This document shows positions 6,281 through 41,474 of a stretch of DNA of 64,000 nt, in pieces. This DNA comes from Patescibacteria group bacterium. GTDB taxonomy: Bacteria; Patescibacteriota; Minisyncoccia; Phycocordibacterales; UBA9973. Location: the NCBI GenBank assembly GCA_040390725.1, contig JAZJXT010000003.1:34502-98501 (forward strand), written 5' to 3'. The translations under genes and the position numbers were made by a program. The first letter of the stretch is position 1, and the number at the start of each line of letters is the position of its first letter. Under the pieces are notes generated by a model, which was not told where the DNA came from, searched no databases, and saw only the letters and a program-made list of their open reading frames with translations.

Positions 6281-6784
6281 TCATAAACCCTTTGTTTTTA
6301 AGCACGTAAGGCCTGTCAAAGCTATCGCAATAGCATCCATTTCATCGTCTGATTTTTTTGAATTATCTATATCTACCAGCATTTTCACCATTTTTATCAT
6401 TTGAGCTTTGTCAGCCTTGCCATACCCGGTAGTGGCTATTTTTATTTGAGGAGGGGAAGCCTCGAAAACTTTGAGCCCCGCGCATGAGGCTTCGTATATA
6501 ACCACCCCACGTGCTTCTGCTACATGCATCACTGTTTTTTGGTTAGTGGTCAGGAAAAGAGTTTCTACCGCCAATACCTCCGGTTCGTATTTTTTAATTA
6601 CATTTCTAACTTCTTCACCGATAAGTTTTAACCTTTCCGAAAATTCCAATTTTGCCGAAGTTTTAAAACATTCAGAATAAATTACTATATTTTTATTTAC
6701 CTTACCGTAGCCTTGTATAGAGGGGGATTCCAACACCGCCACCCCCAACCTCTCAAAACCCGGGTCTATGCCTAAAATTTTCAT
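6281..6784 (-). CDS. ruvC: Holliday junction resolvase RuvC
   Basis: MKILGIDPGFERLGVAVLE… RNase H-like fold with catalytic D/E positions; start taken at MKILGID (track ORF extends to 6877). Confidence 0.85.
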   Translation of the reverse strand: MKILGIDPGFERLGVAVLESPSIQGYGKVNKNIVIYSECFKTSAKLEFSERLKLIGEEVRNVIKKYEPEVLAVETLFLTTNQKTVMHVAEARGVVIYEASCAGLKVFEASPPQIKIATTGYGKADKAQMIKMVKMLVDIDNSKKSDDEMDAIAIALTGLTCLKTKGL

Positions 6785-6837
6785 AAGTTTATTATACATT
6801 ATATATAGGTTAATTTTAGTTTTTAAGATGTATTTAT

Positions 6838-9800
6838 TTGTCACACAAAAAAACATACTCTTTAGACAAAAAAGCATTTTTATGCCAGTATATAGGTATG
6901 GAAAGAATATATAAACCAGTTACACAACCGCCTATTGTCCCTAAAAAGAAAGCGGATGTTGTTTCTAATAAAAAAGAAAAATCTGTTAAAAAGAAGGATA
7001 ATATAGAACTGTCAGTTGTCTCTAATCTTAAAAAAATATTAAACTCTCAGATAAGCCCAACTGCTGCGCAAATTTTTGTGTTTGAAAATGTGCATACAAA
7101 AGAAGAATTTGAAAGTGTGTTAAATTATCTTGTAAAAAATGCATCTGATAAAAAATTAGAACCCTACATAGGTAAACTTATAGATGCTATTGGTCAAAAT
7201 GGACAAAGGGTTAGCCCAGAAGTTTGGATTGAAAATATGTCGGACCTTTTTTCAGTCGCAGGTGTTTCCGGAAACATAAAAGATTCTGCGCTTTCTGCTA
7301 CTAATTATATAATGTCATTTTATGAAGGGCATATTCCTGAAATTTTAAAAAAAGCAACCCTTGAAGACATTTCTGATTATAACAAAACAGGTAAATTGAT
7401 TAAGTTTCTTTTTTACTTAGGCAGGGAAGCCAAAGGTCAGGGGTTTTCAGAAAAACTTTCTGAAAGTATAAAAGAAACCTTAGGTAAAATAGCAGAGCCG
7501 AAATTGGAAAAAAATTATTTATTAACAAAATTCGCTGGTGGTGCCTTAGAGGGGTTAGAAAACAAACACAATCCAAATGCTTCTGGCACACTTTGGTTTG
7601 CCATCCAAAAAGATCAATATGGGGCTGTGTATGAGGATGGATTTTTGCACATTAGTGATGCTGGAACAAAAAATGACATTGACTCTAAAACAGAAAAAAT
7701 TCATGAAATGTTTAAAATAAAGATGTCGTCTGAAGACGGGGAAAGATTGTCTGAGATAGAAAAAGAACTTGCAGAAATTAAAGAAGAGCTGTTCCCATCA
7801 AATAAAAAGATAATTACTGAAATTAATGAAAAAAATAATAAACTTATTAAAAAAATAAATGAACTTCATGATGAAAATGTAGAAATTTTTAAACGCAATA
7901 ATCCTGATTTTCGTGCCTTAGACAGAGAAAGGGTAAAAAGGGTTATTGAAATTGAAGATATTGTTTCAAAAAATACAATAACACCAAAAGTACTTATTGA
8001 TATGGTCCCTGGAGTAAGTCCTGAAGAAGTTAAAAAATTATATCCAGATTACTTGTTTATGTTGGATGGCATCATGAGACCAATTTTGGAAACAGACTTT
8101 CAAAAAGATATTTTTACACTTTCAATACCAGAGCAATTATATTTTTTAAATTACTTGAAAACAATAAATAATAAACAAGCTGAACAGATGAAGAATTTCT
8201 GTAAAACTAATGGCTTAAATGGTCTTCGAACATTTCTTTCAATTGCCCATGGTGGAAAGGAAATGGGAGACAAGATTATAACTATAGGGGAAAGGTTGCC
8301 GGAAGAATTGGCGGAAAAGGTTTTTCAAATTTACAGCGAACATGTGGAAAAAGTTGCAGTGGTGGCTGGAAAGGTTTTTTCTGATTTAAAACAGGAATTT
8401 CCAAATTTATTAATAGATGAAGATACTATTACTCAATCATTGTTGGTTCGCGCAAAAGATTTTTTGGTTGAGCTTGAAGCGGAATTGCAATCCAATCCGG
8501 AAGGAATAAAAAGTTTTGTTAATAAATTTATTACTGAAATTAAAAAAGAGTCACCTCAAGAGCAGGTGGTGCGAGCTCAATTTAAGACGATTGCAAATTT
8601 GTTAAATCATGAAAATGTTGATCTTAAAAATTTTGAAAACAATCAGGATTTGATTTTACATTCATTGGGCACGGGTGAGCAGAAAGCTTTGATGTTTAGG
8701 GCATTAAACAGGATGAATCGGTTGAGCCCTGTGCCTGAAATACATTGGCGAGTCGATCGTTCCAGTGAAGAATATGACAGACGTTTAGGAATAAATGTAA
8801 ATAAATTTTTACAAGAAAGGTCAGGCATTTTAGGCAGAAAACAGATTTTATTGGAAATTGGTCCTGGGAGTGGGGTTGCAAAATCAGGCAGGACAGACCT
8901 GGGCCTTTCTGAAAATTATCAAGACATAGCTCTTTCAGATAAAATTTATTATCCCTTGTCTTCAGTAGTTGAAAAACTTATTGATTACTCTGAATTAGAA
9001 AAAATAATGGGTAAGGAGTCAGGTTCGAACGATAATCTTCCACTTTCAGCAGAAGAAAAAAGCCAATTGGCGGATTTTATTTATAAAACAATAGTTATTA
9101 AGCAAGGAGAAACTTCATTCGATACTTTCACATACGACGAGCAAAACCAAATGAATTTAACTGAAGATATAAATAATTTAAAAAATATTTTAGGTGAACA
9201 GCTTGGTCAAAGATTAAAATCGGCAAAAGAAGTCCCCGACACTGTCAGCATGCATCGCGACGGCAAGGTTGTTTACCCGAATAAAATAAAAGTCGAATCA
9301 TGGTCGCCAAAATTACAAATGGCAAAAAAATTACTTGAAGAAAACCCAACAAACTTCTTGAGATCAGATTGGGAGCAAGTTGATTATTACGATTTGATCG
9401 AAGCTTTTCCTGCGAATGTTATGGTCGGGGACTTGGATCAAATTTCTCAATTGCGTTCAGACCAAGTCGATGTGGAATTGGCCGTCAGGTCCACTGTGTA
9501 TAAAAAGGGAGAAGATTATGTTCAATTCTTAGGGCAATTATTTAATACTCTGAGCGAAGGCGGTGTGGCCATAGATGACAGCATCAGGGACAATGACGGT
9601 TGGTATTATCGCATAGCGGAAGTTTTAGAGGCGCAAGAAAAATTTGGAGATAATAATGAAGTTTTAGTTATATTAGGCCCAGGTTTTCAAGGTGAAGACA
9701 AAAGGCAAGACAAAGTGCCTTTATCATTAGTCATTACAAAGAAAGGTAGTTCTATAGAATTGATAAAAAAGAATTTATTACCGGGGTATGAAATAGTTAG

Positions 9801-9897
9801 TCTTGAAAATTTATCTGGTGATCAAGATTATTTATTGACCTTAGATGATACAGGGTTAACAAAAAAGAAAGTAAATCAATCAGCTTTGGCAGCGTAA
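6838..9897 (+). CDS. Large (about 1000 aa) hypothetical protein: Lys/Glu-rich coiled-coil N-terminal half, C-terminal region with a SAM-methyltransferase-like GxGxG motif
   Basis: Uninterrupted 1019-codon ORF; …GRKQILLEIGPGSGVAKSG… resembles MTase motif I; no other recognisable family; alternative start at 6898 (MERIYKP). Confidence 0.5.
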   Translation: MSHKKTYSLDKKAFLCQYIGMERIYKPVTQPPIVPKKKADVVSNKKEKSVKKKDNIELSVVSNLKKILNSQISPTAAQIFVFENVHTKEEFESVLNYLVKNASDKKLEPYIGKLIDAIGQNGQRVSPEVWIENMSDLFSVAGVSGNIKDSALSATNYIMSFYEGHIPEILKKATLEDISDYNKTGKLIKFLFYLGREAKGQGFSEKLSESIKETLGKIAEPKLEKNYLLTKFAGGALEGLENKHNPNASGTLWFAIQKDQYGAVYEDGFLHISDAGTKNDIDSKTEKIHEMFKIKMSSEDGERLSEIEKELAEIKEELFPSNKKIITEINEKNNKLIKKINELHDENVEIFKRNNPDFRALDRERVKRVIEIEDIVSKNTITPKVLIDMVPGVSPEEVKKLYPDYLFMLDGIMRPILETDFQKDIFTLSIPEQLYFLNYLKTINNKQAEQMKNFCKTNGLNGLRTFLSIAHGGKEMGDKIITIGERLPEELAEKVFQIYSEHVEKVAVVAGKVFSDLKQEFPNLLIDEDTITQSLLVRAKDFLVELEAELQSNPEGIKSFVNKFITEIKKESPQEQVVRAQFKTIANLLNHENVDLKNFENNQDLILHSLGTGEQKALMFRALNRMNRLSPVPEIHWRVDRSSEEYDRRLGINVNKFLQERSGILGRKQILLEIGPGSGVAKSGRTDLGLSENYQDIALSDKIYYPLSSVVEKLIDYSELEKIMGKESGSNDNLPLSAEEKSQLADFIYKTIVIKQGETSFDTFTYDEQNQMNLTEDINNLKNILGEQLGQRLKSAKEVPDTVSMHRDGKVVYPNKIKVESWSPKLQMAKKLLEENPTNFLRSDWEQVDYYDLIEAFPANVMVGDLDQISQLRSDQVDVELAVRSTVYKKGEDYVQFLGQLFNTLSEGGVAIDDSIRDNDGWYYRIAEVLEAQEKFGDNNEVLVILGPGFQGEDKRQDKVPLSLVITKKGSSIELIKKNLLPGYEIVSLENLSGDQDYLLTLDDTGLTKKKVNQSALAA

Positions 9898-10673
9898 CTT
9901 TCTTTTGAGGAATTATTTTTTTCCAATTCCCAAATTAAGTTGAAAAGTTTTTCAAAGTTTTTTGCTATCTCTTGGTTGTCAATCAAGATACCTACAGCAT
10001 TATTTTTCTGAAATGTAATAATTGAAGTTAGTTGCTCGGTGATTTTTATATCCATACTGAAAGGGAAGATAGAATTTTGGAAAAATTTCGTTTCTCGCAG
10101 TTCTGATTCGGAATTGATGTTGATTTTATTGTCTGCCGGGGCGATAACCCTGTTTTTTATATTTAATTTTATTCTTTTCTTAATAAATTGCGGAAAGTAT
10201 TCAGGAATAAAAGATGCCATTTCCCCGCCATCTTCAAAACTGTCTATAAATTTACTTTTACTATTTAGGATTTGTTCGTATATATTTATAATACCTTCTT
10301 TACCCTCAAAAAATCTGACATTTGGTTTGCCTACTATTAAATTGTATTTAGAGGAAAGTGCACCGATGCCCGCGCCGACTATTTCTTTGGCGAGGTCTAG
10401 ATTCTTTTTATCCCTATCCATTTTATCTAACAATATAGAAGGGTGGGCGGGGTAGAATACCGCCACCGTGCCGGTACCGCCCTTTTTCTCTACTAAACCC
10501 ATATTTTCCAGCTGTTCTAGTATTTTATAAACCAAACCTCTTTTTATACCCGTCCAAGTTGAAAGCGGGCTGGCTTTTTGAGGGCCTTTATCCAGTAGGG
10601 ATTCATACACGATTGCTTGTTCTTCTGAAAGCCCCGCTTGTTTTAAAATATTTTCTTGATTTATATCTGTCAT
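9876..10673 (-). CDS. TrmB-family transcriptional regulator
   Basis: N-terminal winged HTH …AGLSEEQAIVYESLLDKGPQKASPLSTWTGIKRGLVYKILEQLENMGLVEKK… matches TrmB HTH; C-terminal effector domain. Confidence 0.75.
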   Translation of the reverse strand: MTDINQENILKQAGLSEEQAIVYESLLDKGPQKASPLSTWTGIKRGLVYKILEQLENMGLVEKKGGTGTVAVFYPAHPSILLDKMDRDKKNLDLAKEIVGAGIGALSSKYNLIVGKPNVRFFEGKEGIINIYEQILNSKSKFIDSFEDGGEMASFIPEYFPQFIKKRIKLNIKNRVIAPADNKININSESELRETKFFQNSIFPFSMDIKITEQLTSIITFQKNNAVGILIDNQEIAKNFEKLFNLIWELEKNNSSKESYAAKAD

Positions 10674-10696
10674 GTTTATAGCATAACATTTCTGTT

Positions 10697-10717
10697 TTTG
10701 TCATGCAAATATGACAA
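10697..10717. promoter_or_regulatory. Palindromic operator candidate upstream of the TrmB-family gene
   Basis: TTGTCAT-gcaaat-ATGACAA perfect 7-bp inverted repeat about 25 nt upstream of the regulator start codon; a DnaA-box-like TGTGGATAA follows at about 10718-10726. Confidence 0.4.
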
Positions 10718-10786
10718 TGTGGATAACTTTTATAACCTTATAAATAAAGGTTTTTTGTCTATTTATAAAATCTTTATCATGTCTTC

Positions 10787-10815
10787 TTGACATTTCTAAA
10801 CTAAAATGCTATACT
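10787..10815 (+). promoter_or_regulatory. Near-consensus sigma70-type promoter
   Basis: TTGACA-17 nt (…aaatgc)-TATACT; the same aatgcTAtACT architecture recurs at 17749 and 22353. Confidence 0.7.
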
Positions 10816-10819
10816 ATCC

Positions 10820-11215
10820 TCAGAAGGTTCGTTAAGGAGATTTCAGAAGATTGATGCCCACCTCTGATCCTGAGCATTGTTTCAACAAAGCACAGGACGG
10901 TACCTAAGCCGGTAAGTTAGGAAAGAGGAGAGAGTGAGCTGAGAGACAATCCTTTGAAATCTGTTTGCACCGCGGATTGCATAAATTGATATTGAGGCCG
11001 CAAACCCCAAATCAATGAAGCAACAAAGTCCGCAACCGTGTATACATCACTGCAAAGTGGTGAAGACATAGGCAGGTCGGAAGAGTCTAACCCTCTCTTG
11101 TGATCTGAAATGTCTTTATGAAGGAGCTGAATGTTTGAGGAGAAATATTCGGAGCACAAAGAGGAGAGAGACTTGCTTTGTGATAAAGATAAATTCATTG
11201 ACAACAAAATATTCT
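10820..11215 (+). ncRNA. Candidate non-coding RNA or long structured leader
   Basis: About 400 nt of GC-rich sequence after a consensus promoter with no ORF longer than 27 codons on this strand; internal direct repeat AAGAGGAGAGAG (about 10919 and 11160) and complementary CCCTCTCTT (about 11092). Confidence 0.35.
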
Positions 11216-11383
11216 GAAAGCGATTTCTTTTTTCTTAGTTGAATTAAAGAAATGGTATTTAGATATGCCTTATGAAGAAATTCGTGAGGGGAATATAAGT
11301 TTTTTCTTTTAACTTTTCTTTTTTGAGAGATATTTGTATATAAAATATTATATGTAAGTACCTCTCACAATAAAGAGAGTTAC

Positions 11384-11563
11384 ATGACAGATCAAAAAAT
11401 TTTAGCTCTGCGCGCGGCAGGGATAAATGTTATCGGGAAGATAGTTCTTCCTGGTGATAAAAAAACCGCCACCAAGAAGGTGGCAAAAAAACATTTTAAA
11501 CCTTTTTTCGGTGGTTATACCATCGGAGAAGTTTTGAAAGCTCAGGGTATCTCTTTGGGATAA
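11384..11563 (+). CDS. Small basic protein, 59 aa (below ORF-track cutoff), hypothetical
   Basis: Hand translation: MTDQKILALRAAGINVIGKIVLPGDKKTATKKVAKKHFKPFFGGYTIGEVLKAQGISLG*; purine-rich aaagagag 8 nt upstream; followed by an AGGGTTAA-hairpin module. Confidence 0.4.
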   Translation: MTDQKILALRAAGINVIGKIVLPGDKKTATKKVAKKHFKPFFGGYTIGEVLKAQGISLG

Positions 11564-11782
11564 GCTGAGTAAAAGTGTGAGTATCACTTTCAAAAAACTG
11601 CTCACTAGGGGTTAGGGTTAAAAACTAAAATGCTGAATTATTACAATTCAGCACCTTATTCAGTTCATTATTTTAAATGGTGGATTGATAGGGAAACATT
11701 TTCGTTCCTTTTTCATTCTTGCGGGATATTTTTACATATTAATTTGTGTATGAATACCCCGCAAAAATTTAAACGGGTTAAA

Positions 11783-12157
11783 ATGAATTATTTAGAAATT
11801 ATTGGCTACATTTCGGACATGGCCGGAGCCATTGGTGGAATAGTTTCCGCCATTGGAATTTTTACGCTTTTAGCGCAGAAAAGACGCGAAGAGCAAAATA
11901 TTTCTGTCTTCTTTAGGGTGATTGAAGAAGACCGGAATATTTTATTGCCCTTCGAACTTGTTCGGAGGGATATTTCCCGAGCTGAAATTCTTGGGAGAAT
12001 GGGCATGTTGCCCATTCAAGAAAAATCAGGAAGATTTTCTATTCGAGGGCTACTGTCTTCGGAGTTTTTAAAAAATCTAAATGAAATTCGCGAGGGTAAA
12101 ACCTCGGTTCTTCATATTTCTATCACCCAAAAGGAATTGGAGCAGTTTGTGCTTTGA
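11783..12157 (+). CDS. Hypothetical protein: N-terminal TM helix plus about 90-aa soluble domain (ORFan)
   Basis: MNYLEIIGYISDMAGAIGGIVSAIGIFTLLAQKRR… hydrophobic helix then charged domain; GC about 45% versus about 30% in flanks; conserved leader module upstream. Confidence 0.5.
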   Translation: MNYLEIIGYISDMAGAIGGIVSAIGIFTLLAQKRREEQNISVFFRVIEEDRNILLPFELVRRDISRAEILGRMGMLPIQEKSGRFSIRGLLSSEFLKNLNEIREGKTSVLHISITQKELEQFVL

Positions 12158-12247
12158 TTCTTTTTGAAAGGGTTACTGTTAGACCTAAAAAACAGCGCAG
12201 AACCTGTAGGGCGTAACACGAAAGGAGATTTTTTTAACCATTCAAAA

Positions 12248-12553
12248 ATGGCAAAAAAAATTATTGACTTGTCTTTAACGACAGAAAATCCTTTGTATAA
12301 AGGATGCTCTGTAGAAGAGGTTGCAGGTCGTCAAACTTTAACCACTCCCTTGGAGGAGGCGGTGAATATTGTGGGCAGAAATGCTGATGCAATAGTCAAA
12401 GCCGACACCGAGAGAGACGAGGTAGTTCTGACTGGCCCTATGGCTATTTGGAGCTACCTTATAGTATTTCACGCGGTCGTTCATGCTTACCGTCGTGTTT
12501 ACTATAGTGACGGTAGAGGAGGTAAAGACCTTCTCATCGCTGCTCACGGTTAG
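12248..12553 (+). CDS. Hypothetical protein, about 100 aa (ORFan)
   Basis: MAKKIIDLSLTTENPLYKGCSVEEVAGRQ…VVLTGPMAIWSYLIVFHAVVHAYRRVYYSDGRGG…; likely cotranscribed with 11783-12157. Confidence 0.45.
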   Translation: MAKKIIDLSLTTENPLYKGCSVEEVAGRQTLTTPLEEAVNIVGRNADAIVKADTERDEVVLTGPMAIWSYLIVFHAVVHAYRRVYYSDGRGGKDLLIAAHG

Positions 12554-12638
12554 GAAAAGACAAAACGAGGGAGCAGGCATGCGTTAAAACCTCAAATGAA
12601 AGTTGTACTGATACATGCGACAAAGATGCAAAGTATTA

Positions 12639-12763
12639 AGGGTTAATTTTGGAGGACGAAGGTTAAAAACTTTCGCGCCTCCTCTTTATTCAGATTTTTA
12701 CGCTTTAAGCGTAGAAGTTTGATAGGGAGACTTATTTTTTGTCTTTGTGGGATATTTGTACAT
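12639..12763 (+). repeat. Intergenic module copy A: AGGGTTAA, hairpin, TCTTTATTCAG, TTGATAGGGAGA, GGGATATTTGTACAT
   Basis: Shares ordered blocks with copies at 11611-11737, 14770-14870 and 15464-15565; hairpin ggaggacgaaggttaaaaactttcgcgcctcc followed by a T-rich tract. Confidence 0.6.
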
Positions 12764-12816
12764 TATGTAAATTGTATTTATTTTGTGTGTAAGTATCCCT
12801 TAAAGACGGGAATTAG

Positions 12817-13614
12817 ATGAATCCAGAAAAGTTTAAAGACCTCGTTCAAAAAGCGAGGATACTCTATCCTGACAACAGGGTGGAGGAAAGCGGGGATACT
12901 AACCCCGCGCCATATGTTTTTCTTACAGAGGAGGACAAAAAGGCGGGACCCACCGCTGTGGCAAAAAAATATAAAATGACGAAAGGGGTCGCGTATCGCG
13001 CTCTGAGTAGTTACGGATTTTTCCGTCCGTGGTATTTAAACACCAAAGAGGAAAAAAAACGTACTCCGGCTCACCATCGGAGAAATCAGGTATTCATGCC
13101 TAGTCAATGGGCAATGGAGAATCCTGAGATAATAATTAAGGCAGCTCGCCAGGCTGCCCAAAGAGAGCTTCGTTCTCGTTTTGGCTCGTTTCGTTTTACT
13201 CATGATGAATTTCAAGATATCGTGAGTGAGACAATAGTTCGCATGTATGCGAACTCGAGCAAGTGGGATCGGAGCAAGTATAGTTCCGATTTTGCGATGG
13301 CGTTGTTCGGTGGTTTTAGACATGTACGATCTGCAATAAATTTCGTACTGTTCAGAAAGGCTGAACAGCAAATCCCTTTTTCTACTTTCCTTGGAGCGGA
13401 AGGCGGTGAAGAAAAATGGTCGGCGCTTGAAGACGAAGCGTCGCTTGATGCCCAATCTCTTTTGGAGACAAAGGAGATTTTGAAAAATGTTGAACAAGCT
13501 ATTGTTGCCACTTACGGCCCAAAAACTTGGACAAAAATTTGGAGATGGGCAAACTCCAACAGGGTAAACATGCCGGAGGAGTATCGCAAGATACTAGAGA
13601 CATGTTTAAACTGA
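12817..13614 (+). CDS. Hypothetical protein, 265 aa (ORFan); weak resemblance to sigma-70 region 2
   Basis: Segment EFQDIVSETIVRMYANSSKWDRSKYSSDFAMALFGGFRHVRSAINFVLFRK loosely follows the sigma r2.1-2.4 pattern (DLVQETFLKAW…FSTWLYRIARN); no clear region-4 HTH. Confidence 0.45.
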   Translation: MNPEKFKDLVQKARILYPDNRVEESGDTNPAPYVFLTEEDKKAGPTAVAKKYKMTKGVAYRALSSYGFFRPWYLNTKEEKKRTPAHHRRNQVFMPSQWAMENPEIIIKAARQAAQRELRSRFGSFRFTHDEFQDIVSETIVRMYANSSKWDRSKYSSDFAMALFGGFRHVRSAINFVLFRKAEQQIPFSTFLGAEGGEEKWSALEDEASLDAQSLLETKEILKNVEQAIVATYGPKTWTKIWRWANSNRVNMPEEYRKILETCLN

Positions 13615-14309
13615 AAACAATTTTGCCTTTATCCGCTCCAGGAGTGAATAAGGTAAAACTCTCTGCCAAGGAGGGTGCTGTATATCAGCGAATACTTGGA
13701 CTTGCTCAGAAAGCGTGTATGCGCGCGCTTTTAAGTAAAGACATAGACGGCGCGTATTTCAATGCTGTCTATTTAGAGGATCGCTGTTTCCAGATTAAGG
13801 TGAAGCCGAAAATTGGGCTGAAGTTTAATCTGAACATATATTTGTTTCAGTTTTTTTCTTGCTGGTCGGACAACAATGTCGCCAACAGGGCTGAAGTGAA
13901 TATAAAAAACGATGACGAGGAGGAAGAAATTCTTCGCGTTCTCGTTGAAGCGATCAGAGCCAAAACGACTTCTTTCCGCGCGGGCTTTATGGCGGAAGAA
14001 GTTGTTGGAAATATGCTGGCGGACATGGCTGGTAAAAAAATGATTATCAAATACAAAAAATCTTTCCAGTTGGAAGATTTGGCGGGAGTTGATTTTTATT
14101 TTTCCGTTTTGGACTTTTTGGGATTTGTGGTTGAAATTCCACTACAAGTAAAAAGTTCAGTGGGGGGTCAAGCAAGGCATGAAAAAAAGCATGCTGACAT
14201 TCCCTCGCTCGTAGTCCGTCCTGAAACTTCCGAAGAAGAGTTGCAGGAAAAAATCATGAAAATTGCCGGCGCATATTCGGCAAAATTCAAAAAGGTTCTT
14301 CATGTTTAA
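13602..14309 (+). CDS. Hypothetical protein, 236 aa (ORFan)
   Basis: Start ATGTTTAAACTGA overlaps the upstream stop by 13 nt, suggesting translational coupling; track ORF starts at 13527. Confidence 0.45.
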   Translation: MFKLKTILPLSAPGVNKVKLSAKEGAVYQRILGLAQKACMRALLSKDIDGAYFNAVYLEDRCFQIKVKPKIGLKFNLNIYLFQFFSCWSDNNVANRAEVNIKNDDEEEEILRVLVEAIRAKTTSFRAGFMAEEVVGNMLADMAGKKMIIKYKKSFQLEDLAGVDFYFSVLDFLGFVVEIPLQVKSSVGGQARHEKKHADIPSLVVRPETSEEELQEKIMKIAGAYSAKFKKVLHV

Positions 14310-14340
14310 TTTGTTTTTGTTCACTTAAATTTTTTTCATT

Positions 14341-14706
14341 ATGGCAGTTATCACCGCAAAAAAACTTACGGATTTTTTTATTCGTAAGTCAGACAAAGGG
14401 GAGGTCCTCTTTGCTGATGGACAAACCGGCATGCGTTGTCGGCTCGGATTGTGCATTCGCACAATTTGGGAAAGTCCCAACGGGTTTGTTCCACAACCCG
14501 AGAAACATATTTTTGCAGTCAGTAGTGGAAGACTGGCTGACTTCGGAGTGGCATATGTCACATCTGAAACCCGTTCCATTGATCCGGACTTGCCAGGCAA
14601 GCCGGTAATGGTGGATTTTCTTGAAATTGGTGGTGTGTTTTATTACACCATTATTTTTGAGAAAAAAGAGCGACCACGGGCGCTCGAAAAAAGAAACTGG
14701 AATTAA
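14341..14706 (+). CDS. Hypothetical protein, 121 aa (ORFan)
   Basis: Intact ORF with island-type GC; followed by module copy B. Confidence 0.4.
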   Translation: MAVITAKKLTDFFIRKSDKGEVLFADGQTGMRCRLGLCIRTIWESPNGFVPQPEKHIFAVSSGRLADFGVAYVTSETRSIDPDLPGKPVMVDFLEIGGVFYYTIIFEKKERPRALEKRNWN

Positions 14707-14769
14707 TTCAGTTTTTTTTGCAATAGCTCTTGCCTATGAAGGTCGGCTTTGCCAGCAAGAATGTATCCT

Positions 14770-14870
14770 AGGGTTAATTTATTTGGGAGGAGTGGAATTG
14801 AACTTCACTCCTCCTCTTTATTCAGATTTTCAATTTTTAAATATTTTAAATTGGAAGTTTGATAGGGAGA
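14770..14870 (+). repeat. Intergenic module copy B: AGGGTTAA, hairpin, TCTTTATTCAG, TTGATAGGGAGA
   Basis: agggttaattta…gggaggagtggaattgaacttcactcctcctc-tttattcagatttt…ggaagtttgatagggagatg; identical block order to copy A. Confidence 0.6.
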
Positions 14871-14945
14871 TGCCGAAACCCAAAGAAAAAGTAGGAGAAT
14901 TAAAAACTTATTAAGTCCCCCGATGTCGTAAGGGGGCAGAAAAAA

Positions 14946-15464
14946 ATGGAATTTCTTGAAAAAGAAAAACCCCAACACGGTATCTCTTCTGGAGAAACTG
15001 TGTTCGGGTATTTTGCCCCTGACAAAACTTTACAAAAAGTTACGGGGTCAAAATTCGCCGAAATTTTGAAAAACTCTTCTTGGAAGAGTCAAGCCGGATA
15101 TTTCGGTGATGTCGATGAAGGGAACTGGGTCTCTTCCAAAAATAAGGAGGAAGTAACTCAACAGGTTCTTTCTGCGTGGAAAGAACTTGTTGGGGATAAA
15201 TACCCACATCCAAATGGGTATTGCTTATCCCTAGAAAAAGCCGTTAAGGTTTTAAAAGGGACCCCCGTCATTTATGAGGGGGAGGATAATTTTTTCATTT
15301 CCGGTAAGCCATATTATGGGCAGGGGAAGTGGAAATATTATAAAAACCTGAAAATGGAGGATATTTTTTGTCTCCCATTTAATGGGTATTACCCGGAGAA
15401 ATTATTTTTTTCGAGAGAAGAAATTCTCTCTGTCTGCAACACAAATTTGCAGTTTCCGGGGTAG
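14946..15464 (+). CDS. Hypothetical protein, 172 aa (ORFan, Gly/Tyr/Lys-rich)
   Basis: Intact ORF; small hairpin gtcccccgatgtcgtaagggggc just upstream of the ATG. Confidence 0.4.
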   Translation: MEFLEKEKPQHGISSGETVFGYFAPDKTLQKVTGSKFAEILKNSSWKSQAGYFGDVDEGNWVSSKNKEEVTQQVLSAWKELVGDKYPHPNGYCLSLEKAVKVLKGTPVIYEGEDNFFISGKPYYGQGKWKYYKNLKMEDIFCLPFNGYYPEKLFFSREEILSVCNTNLQFPG

Positions 15465-15478
15465 GGGTTAATATTTCA

Positions 15479-15515
15479 GAAAGGTTTGATAATTTCAAAC
15501 CTTTCTAACTTTTTC
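15479..15515 (+). terminator. Rho-independent terminator ending the island's last gene
   Basis: gaaaggtttgataatttcaaacctttc hairpin then taactttttcagttt; preceded by AGGGGTTAA overlapping the stop codon. Confidence 0.6.
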
Positions 15516-15722
15516 AGTTTATTATTTAACAGCTTACAAGCTTGTTGAATAGTGGATTGATAGGGCCCAGAAATTTTAAAAAAGTTTTTTAAAATTTCTG
15601 GGCGGGAAAAGCCCGGTTCAAAATTAAAATAACGTGCTGTTCTTTCTCGTCTCACAACAGAAAGAACAGCAAAAATCTCTCTCCTCTCGTTATTTGTTTT
15701 TTGAGCCGGACTTTTCTTTAGA

Positions 15723-16715
15723 TTATTTCTTCATCTCTCTTAAATCCGCCACTTCGTCCGTCTCGTCCATTATTTCGCCGACGAGCTGTTCGACGACGTC
15801 TTCGAGGGTGACGATGCCGGAAGTTCCGCCGAATTCGTCTTTGACTACTGCCATGTGGTTTTTACTTTTTTGGAATATCGGCATCAAGTGGTCGAGTTTT
15901 ATATTTTCTTTTACTTTTATTATATTTTTAGCAAATTCTTCTATTTTTTTATTTTCTTCTCCACGGATAGAGGCTTGTAGTAAATCAAGAGTGCGCACGA
16001 ATCCTATAATTGTGTCAAAGTTTTTATCATATACAGGGTATCTGGAGAAAGGAGCATTTTGTAGTCTTGGAATTACGTCAGCCAAAGTCTCACCTTGTTT
16101 TAAGCATTCCATTACTGTGCGCGGTGTCATGATGTCTTTTGCTGTCAGATCATTCATTGTAAAAGCTTTTTCAATAATTTCTCTTTCGCCTTGTTCTATT
16201 GAGCCTTCCATGTGTCCTACTCGCGAAAGTATTTTTAACTCTTCTTCTGAAGTTGTTTTTCTGACTTCCGCGAAGTTTTTAGTGAAAAGTTCCACAAACC
16301 AAGCAATAGGGGTAAATATTTTTGATAAAAAAAGTATAGGCCTCGCAGTTGTTAAGGAGATGATTTCCGAGTATTTTTCTCCTATTGTTTTTGGTATTAT
16401 TTCTGCGAAAAGAATTATAGATATTGTGACTACTGCAGATATTGCACCTACAAACTTATGGTCATATATTTTTGCCGCATAAAAACCGACGAATATACTG
16501 CCGGCAATACTTACGACATTGTTTAATATAACTAAGGTAATTATGGGGCGATTTATCTTATTTTTTATTTTCAAAAGAGTATTTGCCCCAAAAACTTTCT
16601 TGTCTTTTAATGCTTCGGCGCGCGTGGCGGAAATTGTAAAAATAGCCGCTTCGGACATAGCGAAAATTCCCGAAAGAAAGATTATTAGTAAAACTATGAT
16701 AATTAAAAGTCCCAT
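15723..16715 (-). CDS. CNNM/CorC-HlyC family protein (DUF21 TM domain + tandem CBS), putative Mg/Co efflux
   Basis: N-terminal multi-TM DUF21-like region, two CBS-like repeats (…LTAKDIMTPRTVM…), C-terminal CorC_HlyC-like tail. Confidence 0.7.
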   Translation of the reverse strand: MGLLIIIVLLIIFLSGIFAMSEAAIFTISATRAEALKDKKVFGANTLLKIKNKINRPIITLVILNNVVSIAGSIFVGFYAAKIYDHKFVGAISAVVTISIILFAEIIPKTIGEKYSEIISLTTARPILFLSKIFTPIAWFVELFTKNFAEVRKTTSEEELKILSRVGHMEGSIEQGEREIIEKAFTMNDLTAKDIMTPRTVMECLKQGETLADVIPRLQNAPFSRYPVYDKNFDTIIGFVRTLDLLQASIRGEENKKIEEFAKNIIKVKENIKLDHLMPIFQKSKNHMAVVKDEFGGTSGIVTLEDVVEQLVGEIMDETDEVADLREMKK

Positions 16716-22381: not shown

Positions 22382-22465
22382 TTATACAGGGTTAATAGGC
22401 ATAGTTTTTGAGTTTAGGCTTTGAAAAATTACTTATTATCTTTTGTTCTTCTTAAAAAAGAAAGT

Positions 22466-26710: not shown

Positions 26711-26718
26711 TAATTCTG

Positions 26719-26791
26719 TGCGTCCGGTTGGGATCGAACCAACGACCTTATCCTTAAAAGGGATCTGCTCTACCGACTGAGCTACGGACGC
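26719..26791 (-). tRNA. tRNA-Lys (anticodon UUU)
   Basis: Minus-strand GCGTCCGTAGCTCAGTCGGTAGAGCAGATCCCTTTTAAGGATAAGGTCGTTGGTTCGATCCCAACCGGACGCA: 7-bp acceptor stem, D-arm GCTC/GAGC, anticodon loop CTTTTAA, T-loop TTCGATC; CCA not encoded. Confidence 0.9.
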
Positions 26792-38211: not shown

Positions 38212-38231
38212 TGGGTAAATGTTTTCCATTG

Positions 38232-38303
38232 TGCTCCCGTGAGGAATCGAACCTCAATCACAAACTCCGCAAGCTTGCATTCTATCCGTTGAACTACGGG
38301 AGC
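38232..38303 (-). tRNA. tRNA-Arg, anticodon GCG as read from the anticodon loop
   Basis: Minus-strand GCTCCCGTAGTTCAACGGATAGAATGCAAGCTTGCGGAGTTTGTGATTGAGGTTCGATTCCTCACGGGAGCA: 7-bp acceptor stem, anticodon stem CAAGC/GTTTG, loop TTGCGGA, T-loop TTCGATT. Confidence 0.7.
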
Positions 38304-41310: not shown

Positions 41311-41474
41311 AGATGTATTATATTAGATTTATGAAAAATATCGCTCTTGACAAATTTATGTATTTATATAGACTTATAAATGAATTTCCAGCTTATATAT
41401 TATATTATGCTGGAGCTCAAAAGGAGTTAGCTGAAAATCCTTTAAAGAGTAAGCATGTTCATTAATTTATCGTT

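What the first reader, a model, noticed from the sequence alone, without database searches (positions are those of the whole stretch)
10787..11215. Consensus promoter driving a 400-nt GC-rich stretch without an ORF (ncRNA or uORF-rich leader)
A TTGACA-17-TATACT promoter is followed by about 400 nt in which the longest plus-strand ORF is 27 codons; the only long ORF, on the minus strand, is low-complexity Ser/Leu and not credible. The stretch contains a direct repeat AAGAGGAGAGAG and a complementary CCCTCTCTT. It sits at the head of the island, just downstream of a TTGTCAT-N6-ATGACAA palindrome and a TGTGGATAA DnaA-box-like site. I looked for RNase P P4, the tmRNA tRNA-like end and an SRP domain IV; only a weak SRP-like CAGGTCGGAAG was seen.
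Basis: seen in the sequence. Interest (0 to 1): 0.55.

Follow-up and report, generated by a model that had tools for sequence, protein, structure and literature searches.

The report
New pseudoknotted RNA heading defence-gene cassettes
The flagged stretch is a real gene for a roughly 400-base folded RNA that matches no known RNA family; it is conserved in a group of tiny uncultured bacteria, always sits in front of a fast-changing set of defence-type genes, and has one unchanging loop that matches a short tag at the end of those genes.

Summary
The promoter TTGACA-17-TGcTATACT (10787-10815) drives about 400 nt with no credible ORF.

The element is a structured noncoding RNA. It has at least 45 homologues in Patescibacteria/Paceibacterota genomes and metagenomes. 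Its DNA is 70-78% identical even where the neighbouring protein is only 35-55% identical. A hand-built fold with two pseudoknots was tested on 43 sequences. 94.5% of cells pair, against 34-43% in slid controls. 40 of 66 pairs carry compensatory changes.

No Rfam 15 family matches, even at E<=10. ARAGORN finds no tmRNA. There are no phage or plasmid matches, and four of the ten allowed literature searches found nothing.

The genomic module is constant wherever enough flank is held:
- a large helical-repeat protein;
- a divergent TrmB-like regulator with a conserved operator;
- the RNA;
- a hypervariable array of co-oriented cassettes, including Csx23-, Csx3-, NYN- and DHH-like genes;
- an inverted GGAGAGAG element at the far end.

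The most enriched 7-mers on the sense strand of these arrays, GGGTTAA and TGGGTTA, are the exact complement of the RNA's invariant loop YUAACCCW. They lie in cassette 3' UTRs.

Best reading: a new RNA class that acts in trans on the cassettes through this loop. The identity is well supported; the mechanism is inferred.

The parts
6838..9897 (+). Gene 'C0'. The protein is about 1000 aa (likely start 6901) and always lies upstream of the TrmB-RNA pair.
   Evidence: A homologue is present in the RNA-bearing loci that hold enough upstream sequence. There is no Pfam, PDB, NCBIfam or PADLOC hit. The AlphaFold model shows an alpha-solenoid at residues about 38-608; the C-terminal part is unmodelled. 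Foldseek gives only weak HEAT-repeat matches. Homologues of 550-800 aa often end in a GNAT domain.
9876..10673 (-). TrmB-family HTH regulator, transcribed divergently from the RNA.
   Evidence: Pfam PF01978, E 1.3e-12. It is adjacent and divergent in every locus with enough upstream sequence.
10698..10726 (.). Conserved operator-like palindrome TTGTCAT-N6-ATGACAA (10698-10717), followed by the DnaA-box-like TGTGGATAA (10718-10726).
   Evidence: The sequence is. The consensus TTTGTCAYRCAAATRTGACAA(T)GTGGATAAC is conserved in most of about 50 loci.
10787..10815 (+). Promoter: -35 TTGACA, 17-nt spacer, extended -10 TGcTATACT.
   Evidence: It is near-invariant in all homologues.
10822..11215 (+). 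The structured noncoding RNA. The 5' end is inferred from the promoter. The 3' end is not determined; conservation runs to about 11215.
10838..10962 (+). 5' domain. Long-range helices are P0 (10838-43/10957-62), P1 (10848-53/10947-52) and P2 (10859-65/10929-36). They enclose the variable hairpin P3 (10868-10897) and the H-type pseudoknot P4 (10899-901/10908-10) x P5 (10903-07/10917-21).
   Evidence: Compensatory changes occur in P0, P1, P2, P4 and P5. P5 pairs in 100% of cells and 4 of its 5 pairs are compensatory.
10963..11033 (+). Central pseudoknot. P6 (10963-68/11000-05) crosses P7 (10972-77/11028-33) plus P8 (10985-90/11011-16).
   Evidence: All 6 P7 pairs and all 4 P8 pairs carry compensatory changes. 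P6 is nearly invariant, with one compensatory pair (GC 40, UA 3).
11043..11062 (+). Variable hairpin P9. It is absent or replaced in some homologues.
   Evidence: 5 of 6 pairs are compensatory. Variants lacking P9 are seen.
11063..11116 (+). The most conserved arm: P10 (11063-68/11111-16), P11 (11073-79/11101-07) and P12 (11081-85/11095-99). The invariant 9-nt loop YUAACCCW is at 11086-11094 (TCTAACCCT here).
   Evidence: 98.9% of P11/P12 cells pair and 7 of 11 pairs are compensatory. TAACCC and GAAATGTCTT are invariant in 43 sequences.
11111..11191 (+). Modular 3' domain. It comprises hairpin P13 (11127-36/11143-52), hairpin P14 (11155-61/11176-82) with GGAGAGAG in its loop (11163-11170), and closing helix P15 (UUUAY/RUAAA, 11115-19/11183-87). 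P15 can extend to 11111-19/11183-91, where it overlaps the P10 3' strand.
   Evidence: The Y-R pair of P15 covaries in 22 of 22 sequences (C-G 17, U-A 5). Alternative 3' modules in other loci are.
10927..10934 (+). GGAGAGAG motif, middle copy. It forms part of the P2 3' strand.
11384..15464 (+). Variable cassette array. All ORFs are co-oriented with the RNA: 59 aa; Csx23-like at 11630-12157; Csx3-like at 12164-12553; and four proteins of unknown function.
   Evidence: PADLOC gives Csx23 at E 2.2e-23 and Csx3 at E 1.4e-5. Gene content differs in almost every homologous locus. Between the RNA and the far-end element, 47 of 51 ORFs are co-oriented with the RNA.
11609..11693 (+). Inter-cassette boundary element. 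It runs GGGGTTAGGGTTAAAA, terminator hairpin, TTATTCAGTTCA, GTGGATTGATAGGG. Further copies are at 12640-12730, 14771-14870 and 15459-15565.
   Evidence: The same composite element occurs in other loci. GGGTTAA is the complement of the P12 loop.
15673..15687 (-). Far-end element AGAGGAGAGAGATTT, in inverted orientation. It lies just 3' of the CNNM gene (15723-16715, minus strand) and before a terminator hairpin.
   Evidence: An invariant RRGA-GGAGAGAG-ATTY element lies at the far end of the array in about 22 loci. It is absent from loci without the RNA.

Best explanation
**What it is (shown).** The region encodes a noncoding RNA of about 370-400 nt, from about 10822 to about 11215 on the plus strand. 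I could find no earlier description of it. It is transcribed from a near-consensus extended -10 promoter.

The fold is ornate:
- Three stacked long-range helices (P0-P2) enclose a variable hairpin and an H-type pseudoknot (P4/P5).
- A second pseudoknot follows (P6 crossing P7/P8).
- Next come a variable hairpin (P9) and a highly conserved arm (P10-P12).
- That arm ends in an invariant loop, YUAACCCW.
- The 3' domain (P13-P15) is modular and displays GGAGAGAG motifs.

The RNA defines a family found in Patescibacteria/Paceibacterota. It always occupies the same module: helical-repeat protein, divergent TrmB-like regulator with a conserved operator, the RNA, a hypervariable array of co-oriented cassettes, and an inverted GGAGAGAG element.

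**How it most likely works (inferred).** The RNA is made at a high level under TrmB control and acts in trans on the adjacent cassette array. Its exposed P12 loop (UUAACCC) base-pairs with the (U)GGGUUAA tag. Nearly every cassette carries this tag in its 3' UTR, just upstream of its terminator. In this way one conserved RNA could control the stability, 3'-end formation or expression of whatever cassettes are present.

The repeated GGAGAGAG sites probably recruit a protein partner. The invariant UGUCUUUA segment can pair either with the P10 5' strand or with the AGAYA sequence after P15. This gives a possible conformational switch.

**My probabilities.**
- Real structured ncRNA of a new family: about 0.9.
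- Functionally tied to the cassette array: about 0.6.
- Acts by loop-tag pairing in trans: about 0.35.
For: **Conservation.** nhmmer finds the element next to TrmB homologues. DNA identity is 70-78% even where TrmB is only 35-55% identical in protein. A scan for the invariant 29-nt pattern found 52 metagenome loci, of which about 45 are true homologues.

**Structure.** 66 pairs were tested on 43 sequences:
- 94.5% of cells are canonical, against 34-43% in slid controls.
- 40 pairs have compensatory changes, against 14-23 when slid and 23.7 +/- 2.5 when shuffled (0 of 500 shuffles reach 40).
- The covariation score is 0.291, against 0.04-0.07.
- P15 covaries in 22 of 22 sequences.

**Strand.** The promoter orientation points rightward. 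Many pairs are G-U (for example GU 22 at one P10 pair and GU 17 at one P12 pair). The plus strand folds with z = -4.1, against -2.4 for the minus strand.

**Not a known family.** Rfam 15 gives no hit at gathering thresholds or at E<=10 in the window, and none in 15 homologous loci. ARAGORN finds no tmRNA. There is no match in the phage or plasmid collections, and no relevant literature was found.

**Link to the array.**
- The array lies 3' of the RNA in every locus with enough flank, and its gene content differs in almost every locus.
- 47 of 51 ORFs, plus 6 of 6 in the window, are co-oriented with the RNA.
- Cargo families recur at different ranks in different loci.
- The far-end GGAGAGAG element occurs only in loci that carry the RNA.
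- In L087 the whole unit is duplicated in tandem.

**Loop-tag pairing.**
- In an unbiased 7-mer enrichment on the RNA-sense strand of the arrays, the top two words are GGGTTAA (10.3-fold; 52 against 15; found in 27 loci) and TGGGTTA (7.7-fold). These are the exact complement of the invariant loop.
- In the window, 5 of the 10 GGGTTAA sites lie on the plus strand inside the 4.5-kb array.
- 74 of 96 tags are noncoding. 54 of them lie within about 165 nt after a stop codon, and about half of all 96 are followed by the terminator tail.
- The base 3' of the loop (A or U) tends to match the base 5' of the tag: T28/A20 in loop-A loci against T3/A13 in loop-U loci.
Against: - There are no expression data of any kind. 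The transcript ends, abundance and stability are all inferred.
- The loop-tag complementarity is only 7-8 nt. The flank covariation is not corrected for phylogeny or for tandem tags.
- GGGTTAA also occurs outside the array, for example at 22389 after polA. The tag could therefore be a general 3'-UTR or terminator-associated signal whose match to the loop is coincidental.
- The tag could also be read by a protein, or act at the DNA level.
- All RNA-bearing loci were found through TrmB or through the RNA itself. Whole-genome distribution and copy number are unknown.
- C0 plus TrmB occur without a detectable RNA in L012 and L013.
- No canonical terminator follows the RNA in about 38 of 50 loci. 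The RNA could therefore be the 5' part of a longer transcript.
- The protein partner of the GGAGAGAG sites is unknown.
- The role of the inverted far-end element is unexplained.
Confidence: 0.5

Rival explanations
1. A stand-alone, housekeeping-type stable RNA (a ribonucleoprotein scaffold or ribozyme specific to this lineage) with no functional link to the neighbouring genes. Under this reading the variable island sits next to it only because the 3' side of a conserved RNA gene is an integration and recombination hotspot, as with tRNA and tmRNA genes.
For: - The promoter is near-consensus, conservation is very high and the fold is ornate, with variable peripheral hairpins (P3, P9), as in RNase P RNA or tmRNA.
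- The RNA's 3' domain is replaced by alternative modules in different loci, as expected if insertions occur at the gene's 3' end.
- Two large serine recombinases occur among the island ORFs.
- The islands carry defence-type genes typical of integration hotspots.
Against: - Most islands contain no integrase or recombinase.
- No direct-repeat att-like duplication of the RNA 3' end was seen. The shared GGAGAGAG element at the far end is inverted, not direct.
- The top enriched island word is the complement of the RNA's invariant loop, which a pure hotspot model does not predict.
- The whole unit, including TrmB, the RNA, the island and the far-end element, is duplicated in L087.
Confidence: 0.25
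2. An RNA-marked or RNA-guided cassette-recombination platform, analogous to an integron attI/attC system or to an IS110 bridge RNA. The P12 hairpin (GYYTAAC-CC) and the cassette-end GGGTTA(A) sites, and/or the GGAGAGAG elements in inverted orientation at the two ends, would be the recombination sites through which cassettes are gained and lost.
For: - The cassettes are co-oriented, shuffled between loci and bounded by a stereotyped, partly palindromic composite element.
- The variable region begins inside the RNA's 3' domain, right after the invariant GAAATGTCTTTA.
- Read inward, the two ends of the array carry the same hairpin-RRGA-GGAGAGAG motif.
- The stem-loop sequence GYYTAAC fits the integron inverse-core pattern RYYYAAC, and the tags contain GTTA. 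This is my own reading, and the integron consensus is recalled from memory.
Against: - No tyrosine recombinase (IntI), DEDD/RuvC-like IS110 transposase or other conserved recombinase is in the module. The conserved proteins are a HEAT-like/GNAT protein and an HTH regulator.
- Each cassette has its own promoter-like element and terminator, unlike integron cassettes.
- The tag does not fit GTTRRRY at its last position.
- No excised circles or empty sites were examined.
Confidence: 0.1
3. A cis-acting leader, either a sensor or a processive antiterminator. RNA polymerase starting at the strong promoter would read through the RNA into the cassette array, and the RNA fold, with its P10/P15 alternative pairing, would decide whether it does.
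For: - The promoter points into the array, and 93% of cassette coding sequence is co-oriented.
- No canonical intrinsic terminator lies within 450 nt of the core in about 38 of 50 loci, although such terminators are used elsewhere in these genomes.
- P10 and the extended P15 are mutually exclusive pairings on the invariant UGUCUUUA.
Against: - Every cassette ends in a good intrinsic terminator and is preceded by its own conserved promoter-like and 5'-UTR element. Read-through from one promoter is therefore neither needed nor easy.
- The first downstream gene differs in nearly every locus.
- A 300-nt double-pseudoknot core that is more conserved than any neighbouring protein is unusual for a leader.
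Confidence: 0.1
4. A highly divergent copy of a known universal RNA (RNase P RNA, tmRNA, SRP RNA or 6S RNA) that the standard models miss.
For: - The size, strong promoter and conservation are those of a housekeeping RNA.
- There are short chance resemblances: GCAAACCG as in the RNase P S-domain, GCCGCAAA as in tmRNA PK1 (both recalled from memory), and CAGGTCGGAAG in the window only.
Against: - No Rfam model for any of these reaches even E = 10 on an 851-nt search, and none hits in 15 homologous loci.
- ARAGORN finds no tmRNA.
- There is no tRNA-like end, no P4-type CR-I/CR-V pairing, no GNAR-capped helix 8 and no 6S-type central bubble in the covariation-supported fold.
- The SRP-like string is not conserved.
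- Parcubacteria are reported to lack SRP altogether (PMC4508563).
Confidence: 0.03
5. Protein-coding after all: a small-peptide or uORF cluster, a recoded gene, or a decayed pseudogene.
For: - Several Shine-Dalgarno-like GGAG strings are present.
- A short frame (ATG at 10854) follows AAGGAG.
- Plus-strand frame 0 is interrupted mostly by TGA.
Against: - No frame is conserved, and homologues differ by indels that are not multiples of three.
- Neighbouring genes are read normally with table 11.
- The substitution pattern follows base pairs, not codons.
- The 96-aa minus-strand ORF has no family hit.
Confidence: 0.02

Closest known systems
Large 'ornate' bacterial ncRNAs of unknown or emerging function (OLE, GOLLD, ROOL, raiA/ModT, HEARO)
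   Same: It has hundreds of nucleotides, multiple covarying helices and pseudoknots, invariant loops and a strong stand-alone promoter. Its taxonomic range is restricted. Like GOLLD and ROOL, it is associated with mobile or accessory gene neighbourhoods.
   Different: There is no sequence or structure match to any of them (Rfam 15). The phylum is different (Patescibacteria). It has a fixed partner module (TrmB-like regulator plus helical-repeat protein). It also has an apparent short target tag in the neighbouring genes.
Trans-acting base-pairing sRNAs that use a conserved seed or loop, and RNA antitoxins that target several mRNAs
   Same: An exposed, invariant, C-rich loop is complementary to a G-rich motif shared by many transcripts. 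One RNA could control a whole regulon.
   Different: This RNA is about 400 nt with two pseudoknots, rather than 50-200 nt. The putative targets lie in 3' UTRs next to terminators, not at ribosome-binding sites. The 'regulon' is a physically adjacent, rapidly exchanging cassette array. Pairing has not been shown.
Integron platform (intI, attI, Pc, then a co-oriented cassette array with attC sites)
   Same: A conserved platform with an outward-facing strong promoter is followed by a co-oriented, highly variable array. The cassettes are shuffled and separated by stereotyped, partly palindromic elements.
   Different: There is no integron integrase. The platform element is a structured RNA gene. 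The cassettes carry their own promoter-like elements and terminators. The boundary elements do not match attC.
CsrB/RsmZ-type protein-sponge RNAs
   Same: A short purine-rich motif (GGAGAGAG) occurs several times, often in or next to hairpin loops. It is about 58-fold enriched in the RNA.
   Different: There are only 2-4 copies. One copy is base-paired in P2. The rest of the RNA is a complex conserved fold rather than a string of hairpins. No CsrA-type partner has been identified.
Type III CRISPR-Cas accessory modules
   Same: The cassettes include Csx23-, Csx3-, NYN-, DHH(CorA-associated)- and CARF-linked families.
   Different: No Cas10, other cas gene or CRISPR array was seen in the window region or among the pooled island ORFs. 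The RNA is not a repeat-spacer array.

Membership tests
Bacterial RNase P RNA (Rfam RF00010/RF00011) | Match to the covariance model, with the P4 helix formed by CR-I (GNAANNUC...) near the 5' end and CR-V (ACNNRA...GNNUA) near the 3' end | tested here: not met
   There is no hit even at E<=10 and none in 15 homologues. The GAAAUGUC string pairs locally with GAGACAU (P10), not with a 3'-terminal CR-V.
tmRNA (RF00023 and permuted forms) | A tRNA-like domain (acceptor stem, T arm, 3' CCA context) plus a tag reading frame | tested here: not met
   ARAGORN finds only two tRNAs in the window. There is no Rfam hit. No T-loop or acceptor pairing appears in the alignment, and the candidate frame after GCCGCAAAC is broken by indels that are not multiples of three.
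SRP RNA (4.5S / Bacillus-type) | Helix 8 with a GNAR tetraloop and conserved internal loops, with Ffh present in the genome | tested here: not met
   There is no Rfam hit. CAGGTCGGAAG is not conserved, since homologues read CAGACCATAAG. The P12 loop is 9 nt. Parcubacteria are reported to lack ffh and ffs (PMC4508563); this was not checked in this MAG.
6S RNA | A rod of about 180 nt, largely double-stranded, with a central open-promoter-like bubble | tested here: not met
   The covariation-supported fold is multi-domain with two pseudoknots. There is no Rfam hit.
Any curated Rfam 15 family (4227 models, including OLE, GOLLD, ROOL, HEARO, raiA, riboswitches and ribozymes) | Score at or above the gathering threshold | tested here: not met
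   The only sub-threshold hits in 10600-11450 are chance matches outside the RNA core or on the wrong strand.
Structured noncoding RNA gene (generic) | Nucleotide conservation beyond the neighbouring genes, helices supported by compensatory changes, strand-specific signals and its own promoter | tested here: met
   
Structured noncoding RNA gene (generic) | A discrete transcript detected experimentally | not testable with these tools
   No transcriptome data were available.
Cis-regulatory leader / riboswitch | A conserved downstream gene or gene class under its control, and an expression platform (terminator or SD sequestration) | tested here: not met
   The first downstream gene differs in nearly every locus. 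No terminator follows the RNA in most loci. The cassettes have their own control elements.
Integron | An IntI tyrosine recombinase adjacent to attI, and attC sites (R''-L''...L'-R') at cassette ends | tested here: not met
   No recombinase domain is present in the conserved module. Only 2 of 143 pooled island ORFs are recombinases, and both are serine type. The boundary elements were inspected by eye only; no attC model was run.
IS110-type bridge RNA | An ncRNA of about 180 nt next to a DEDD/RuvC-like-Tnp recombinase, with two internal loops pairing to target and donor DNA | tested here: not met
   There is no such recombinase in the module. The RuvC gene at 6281-6877 is a canonical Holliday-junction resolvase (PF02075) and is not conserved next to C0 in other loci.
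Trans-acting base-pairing RNA with a shared target motif | An exposed conserved segment complementary to a motif enriched in candidate targets | tested here: met
   The invariant loop is YUAACCCW. Its complements GGGTTAA and TGGGTTA are the top two enriched 7-mers on the sense strand of the arrays, and they are located in 3' UTRs.
Trans-acting base-pairing RNA with a shared target motif | Demonstrated RNA-RNA duplex and a regulatory effect | not testable with these tools
   This needs experiments. The flank covariation is only suggestive.

The most novel reading that the evidence does not exclude
A new kind of genetic platform in candidate-phyla-radiation bacteria. In it, a conserved, TrmB-controlled, double-pseudoknot RNA presides over a plug-and-play array of defence-type cassettes. 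Every cassette carries a short (U)GGGUUAA tag that is read by the RNA's invariant loop. Repeated GGAGAGAG sites, present in the RNA and inverted at the far end of the array, delimit the unit. The RNA would be either the master post-transcriptional controller of the array or the guide for cassette capture.
Probability: 0.3. Interest if true: 0.9.

Novelty: categorically new. Interest (0 to 1): 0.8.

Why it matters
Large, intricately folded bacterial RNAs are rare. Each new class, such as RNase P RNA, tmRNA, OLE, ROOL or the IscB and bridge RNAs, has led to new biochemistry. This RNA comes from the candidate phyla radiation, where almost nothing is known about RNA biology.

At the nucleotide level it is more conserved than its protein neighbours. 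It also offers a concrete, testable handle on function: a 7-8-nt loop-tag complementarity with the 3' UTRs of an adjacent array. That array is hypervariable and holds defence-type cassettes, including families linked to type III CRISPR that occur here without Cas10.

If the link is real, this is an RNA-centred way of organising and controlling accessory or defence genes. It would be comparable in concept to integrons, but built around an RNA.

Even if the link is not real, the finding adds a well-defined new family: an alignment, a fold with two pseudoknots, a promoter and an operator. This can go into RNA family databases and structural studies.

Tried and rejected
**Known RNA families**
- Rfam at gathering thresholds and at E<=10 gave nothing relevant, in the window and in 15 homologous loci.
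- ARAGORN found no tmRNA.

**Coding explanations**
- Alternative genetic code or recoding: frame 0 is rich in TGA, but no frame is conserved and the neighbouring genes read normally.
- The 96-aa minus-strand ORF and the short plus-strand ORFs have no family hits and are not conserved.

**Other collections and literature**
- Viral contig scan with the invariant pattern: 0 hits.
- Annotated phage and plasmid collections: no match.
- Literature searches found no description of such an RNA.

**Structure and model building**
- RNAalifold alone gave only a partial fold, with a spurious local hairpin at GUUUGC/GUGAAU. I replaced it with a hand-curated fold and tested that fold against controls.
A model of the 3' domain found only two weak divergent homologues (L006, L021) and no second copy in the window.

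**The large upstream protein C0**
- Sequence searches against Pfam, PDB, NCBIfam and PADLOC, and a structure prediction with Foldseek, gave only 'alpha-solenoid plus variable enzymatic C-terminus (GNAT in homologues)'. There is no RNA-binding or recombinase signal.

**Ideas considered and set aside**
- Read-through or leader idea: weakened once each cassette was seen to have its own terminator and promoter-like element.
- Direct-repeat att sites flanking the island: none found. The shared motif is inverted.
- Telomerase-like reading (loop CUAACCCU and GGGTTAGGGTTA repeats): noted as a resemblance only, because no reverse transcriptase is in the locus.
- CsrA- or Hfq-type sponge idea for GGAGAGAG: could not be tested, because no partner gene was identified.
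Full report
**1. The observation**

The promoter scan finds TTGACA-17-TATACT with a TG extension, matching 11 of 12 positions. On its own this is not remarkable, because the region has as many promoter-like sites as shuffled sequence. What makes it remarkable is conservation: ATTGACA-N17-TGCTATACTAT is kept almost base for base in every homologous locus.

There is no credible ORF.
- The plus-strand maxima are 28 and 35 codons.
- The 96-codon minus-strand ORF has no family hit.
- All six frames are broken.

GC is 0.42-0.46, against 0.26-0.33 in the flanking intergenic DNA.

The repeat AAGAGGAGAGAG (10923, 11159), the palindrome TTGTCAT-N6-ATGACAA (10698-10717) and TGTGGATAA (10718-10726) are all present. 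The 'complementary' CCCTCTCTT pairs locally instead, as the P12 3' strand and part of the loop. The SRP-like string is specific to this window.

**2. The organism and setting**

The window is a chromosome segment of a Patescibacteria (CPR) bacterium. Its genes include dnaN, a class A PBP, TyrRS, RuvC, RuvB, PilB and PolA. The large protein next to the finding is an NCBI 'Patescibacteria group bacterium' hypothetical protein. Relatives of the neighbouring regulator come from Paceibacterota/Minisyncoccia MAGs.

**3. It is a conserved element, more conserved than its neighbours**

I used the divergent neighbour, a TrmB-family regulator at 9876-10673, as bait in one representative genome per species. 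This returned 50 loci.

nhmmer with the 446-nt region found the element immediately upstream of, and divergent from, TrmB in about ten of them. DNA identity is 70-78% over 300-400 nt, even where TrmB is only 35-55% identical at the protein level.

From the first alignment I took an invariant block, TAACCC-N6-GT-N5-GAAATGTCTT.
- It hit nothing in viral contigs.
- It hit 52 metagenome contigs, of which about 45 are full or partial homologues by profile search.
- After removing duplicates, 42 sequences plus the window were aligned.

**4. It is a structured RNA**

The plus strand of the window folds with z = -4.1, against -2.4 for the minus strand.

RNAalifold recovered only part of a fold. I therefore built the structure by inspecting covarying columns and tested it with counts and controls.
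- 66 pairs in 11 helices were tested on 43 sequences.
- 94.5% of cells form standard pairs, against 34-43% when the 3' partners are slid by 1-3 columns.
- 40 pairs carry changes on both sides, against 14-23 when slid. Shuffles give 23.7 +/- 2.5, and 0 of 500 reach 40.
- The covariation score is 0.291, against 0.04-0.07.

In window coordinates the architecture is as follows:

| Element | Coordinates | Note |
|---|---|---|
| P0 | 10838-43 / 10957-62 | long-range |
| P1 | 10848-53 / 10947-52 | long-range |
| P2 | 10859-65 / 10929-36 | long-range |
| P3 | 10868-97 | variable hairpin enclosed by P0-P2 |
| P4 x P5 | 10899-901/10908-10 x 10903-07/10917-21 | H-type pseudoknot; P5 switches CCUAG/CUAGG to UAUGG/CCAUA |
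| P6 | 10963-68 / 11000-05 | crosses P7 and P8 (second pseudoknot) |
| P7 | 10972-77 / 11028-33 | all six pairs compensatory |
| P8 | 10985-90 / 11011-16 | nested within P7 |
| P9 | 11043-62 | variable hairpin |
| P10-P12 | 11063-11116 | conserved arm; invariant loop YUAACCCW at 11086-94 |

The 3' domain is modular. In the commonest form, two hairpins (P13, P14) are closed by P15 (UUUAY/RUAAA). The Y-R pair of P15 covaries in 22 of 22 sequences. Other loci carry different 3' modules, but all contain a hairpin plus GGAGAGAG(AC).

The invariant UGUCUUUA can pair either with the P10 5' strand (GAGACAU) or, by extension of P15, with the AGAYA that follows RUAAA. This is a possible switch.

Frequent G-U pairs and the promoter orientation fix the strand.

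**5. It is not a known RNA**

- Rfam 15 (4227 families) gives no match in the window at gathering thresholds.
- It gives none at E<=10 on an 851-nt search.
- It gives none in 15 homologous loci.
- ARAGORN finds no tmRNA.
- The defining features of RNase P RNA, tmRNA, SRP RNA and 6S RNA are absent from the covariation-supported fold (see the membership table).
- Parcubacteria are reported to lack SRP altogether (PMC4508563).
- There is no similarity in the annotated phage or plasmid collections.
- Four full-text literature searches found no description.

**6. The genomic module**

I clustered ORFs around all copies.

*Upstream.* Wherever enough upstream flank is held, there is a large protein ('C0', window 6838-9897) and then the divergent TrmB-like gene.

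*Downstream.* The genes differ in almost every locus, until core genes resume. These are ClpP and trigger factor in several loci, and CNNM and RuvB in the window.

*C0.* It is far less conserved than the RNA: 33-49% identity over a central segment.
- It has no family or PDB match.
- It is predicted to be an alpha-solenoid with an unmodelled C-terminal domain.
- Foldseek gives only weak HEAT-repeat matches.
- Homologues often end in a GNAT domain.

*Intergenic region.* The region between TrmB and the RNA promoter carries a conserved operator-like palindrome (TGTCA-N8-TGACA) and, in most loci, a perfect DnaA-box sequence.

*L087.* Here the unit occurs twice in tandem: TrmB'-RNA1-array A-far-end element-C0-TrmB-RNA2-array B. 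The two copies share identical upstream sequence but have different 3' parts of the RNA.

**7. The variable array**

In the window the array runs from 11384 to 15464, and all its ORFs are on the plus strand.
- It includes a Csx23-like membrane protein (PADLOC E 2e-23).
- It includes a protein with a Csx3-like C-terminus.

The 143 pooled array ORFs from all loci hit these families:
- Csx23, Csx3, C3a116, the CorA-associated DHH family, a CARF-linked small protein and NYN;
- DUF4143 ATPases and E1/E2/JAB-type proteins;
- HTH proteins and two large serine recombinases.

No Cas10 or other cas gene, and no CRISPR array, was seen.

Between the RNA and the end of the array, 47 of 51 ORFs of at least 90 aa are co-oriented with the RNA. 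The same cargo families recur in different loci at different ranks.

Each cassette is a self-contained unit. In order, it has:
- the gene;
- a 3' UTR ending in (U)GGGUUA(N0-4)GGGUUAAA;
- an intrinsic terminator whose tail reads (C)TTTATTCAG;
- about 25 nt further on, GTGGATTGATAGGGA;
- a promoter-like or 5'-UTR segment, which in some cases scores as the Rfam DUF805b motif.

In the window these boundaries lie at 11609-11693, 12640-12730, 14771-14870 and 15459-15565.

**8. Two sequence links between the RNA and the array**

*(a) GGAGAGAG.* The motif is about 58-fold enriched in the RNA, with 2-4 copies per RNA. At the far end of the array, on the opposite strand, about 22 loci carry an invariant RRGA-GGAGAGAG-ATTY preceded by a hairpin. 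In the window it is at 15673-15687, just 3' of the CNNM gene. Loci without the RNA have no such element. I cannot explain this element.

*(b) The loop complement.* I ran an unbiased 7-mer enrichment on the RNA-sense strand of the arrays, against their opposite strand and the upstream regions.
- The top two words are GGGTTAA (10.3-fold; 52 against 15; 27 loci) and TGGGTTA (7.7-fold).
- These are the exact complement of the invariant P12 loop.
- In the window, 5 of the 10 GGGTTAA sites lie on the plus strand inside the 4.5-kb array.
- 74 of 96 tags are noncoding. 54 of them lie within about 165 nt after a stop codon, and about half of all 96 are followed by the terminator tail.
- The base 3' of the loop (A or U) tends to be matched by the base 5' of the tag: T28/A20 against T3/A13. 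This is suggestive only, because it is not corrected for relatedness or for tandem tags.

**9. Interpretation**

*Shown.* This is a new, conserved, pseudoknotted ncRNA family with its own promoter, in a fixed module at the head of a hypervariable, polar cassette array.

*Inferred, and my best guess (about 0.35).* The RNA acts in trans on cassette transcripts by pairing its P12 loop with their 3'-UTR tag. The GGAGAGAG sites recruit a protein. TrmB sets the RNA level.

*Rivals.*
- A lineage-specific housekeeping RNA whose 3' flank is merely an integration hotspot (0.25).
- An RNA-marked recombination platform (0.1).
- A cis-acting leader (0.1). This is weakened by the terminators and promoter-like elements of each cassette, although most loci lack a terminator right after the RNA.
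- A divergent known RNA (0.03).
- A coding region (0.02).

**10. Limits**

- There are no expression data.
- The 3' end of the RNA is undefined.
- All loci were found through the RNA or through TrmB, so genome-wide distribution is unknown.
- The structure was hand-curated on MAFFT alignments, though the slid and shuffle controls are favourable.
- The loop-tag match is short.

**Verdict**

The finding is real and, as far as these tools and the searched literature can tell, undescribed. It deserves follow-up as a new RNA class with an unusually concrete functional hypothesis.

Noticed in passing
window 15673-15687 (minus strand); about 22 homologous loci, e.g. L060 1626, L098 6240, L068 6492: An invariant RRGA-GGAGAGAG-ATTY element, preceded by a hairpin, marks the far end of the variable array in inverted orientation. 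In one subgroup it sits inside a structure of about 190 nt, closed by a conserved 26-bp stem (TTACCACCATAATTCTGYCGRTTAAT...). It is absent from loci that lack the RNA.
   Followed up: partly
window 11609-11693, 12640-12730, 14771-14870, 15459-15565: A stereotyped inter-cassette element: GGGTTA(N)GGGTTAAA, terminator hairpin, (C)TTTATTCAG, about 25 nt, then GTGGATTGATAGGGA. It is conserved across many genomes. GGGTTAGGGTTA is a telomere-type repeat, and the RNA loop CUAACCCU resembles a telomerase template. This is a resemblance only, since no reverse transcriptase is present.
   Followed up: partly
window 11630-12157 and 12164-12553: Csx23-like (E 2e-23) and Csx3-like (E 1e-5) genes, which are type III CRISPR accessory families. 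They occur with no Cas10, other cas gene or CRISPR array nearby. Pooled arrays of other loci also carry NYN, DHH (CorA-associated), C3a116 and CARF-linked families.
   Followed up: partly
window 10718-10726: A perfect DnaA-box sequence (TGTGGATAA) abuts the TrmB operator-like palindrome. It is conserved in most homologous loci. The window lies about 10 kb from dnaN (847-1944).
   Followed up: partly
window 10735-10760: A terminator-like hairpin, AACCTTATAAATAAAGGTTTTTT, on the plus strand between the TrmB start and the RNA promoter. It is picked up as a weak tsr31-like Rfam hit, E 0.028.
   Followed up: no
window 41421-41455 (+); L098 4651-4685; L003 2110-2144 (-); weak at window 14863-14897: The DUF805b RNA motif (RF02914), a 35-nt candidate cis-regulatory 5'-UTR element. 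It lies upstream of ORF 41475-41927 and upstream of some array cassettes.
   Followed up: partly
L087 (whole contig Ga0194052_1001840, 11,985 nt): Two tandem units (TrmB'-RNA1-array-far-end element-C0-TrmB-RNA2-array). The upstream 150 nt and the 5' two-thirds of the RNA are identical, but P9-P11 and the 3' domains differ.
   Followed up: partly
window 15565-15603: A perfect 19-nt inverted repeat, GCCCAGAAATTTTAAAAAA/TTTTTTAAAATTTCTGGGC, with a 1-nt spacer. It lies between the last cassette boundary and the far-end element.
   Followed up: no
window 12817-13614: A 265-aa array protein with a very weak resemblance to sigma-70/ECF region 2 (NCBIfam TIGR02937, E 0.1). Homologues occur in L077 together with the next two genes.
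   Followed up: no
window 6281-6877 and 16724-17755: ruvC and ruvB are separated by about 10 kb. This interval contains C0, TrmB, the RNA, the array and a CNNM gene. That is consistent with the whole block being an insertion, but this was not tested.
   Followed up: no
window 26718-26791 (-) and 38231-38303 (-): tRNA-Lys(UUU) and tRNA-Arg(GCG). These are the only other RNA genes detected in the window.
   Followed up: no
L012, L013 (C0 + TrmB, no RNA hit); L006 1955-2082 (-), L021 3580-3683 (-): More distant relatives of the module either lack a detectable RNA or give only weak covariance-model hits (29-30 bits). The family may extend further in a diverged form.
   Followed up: partly
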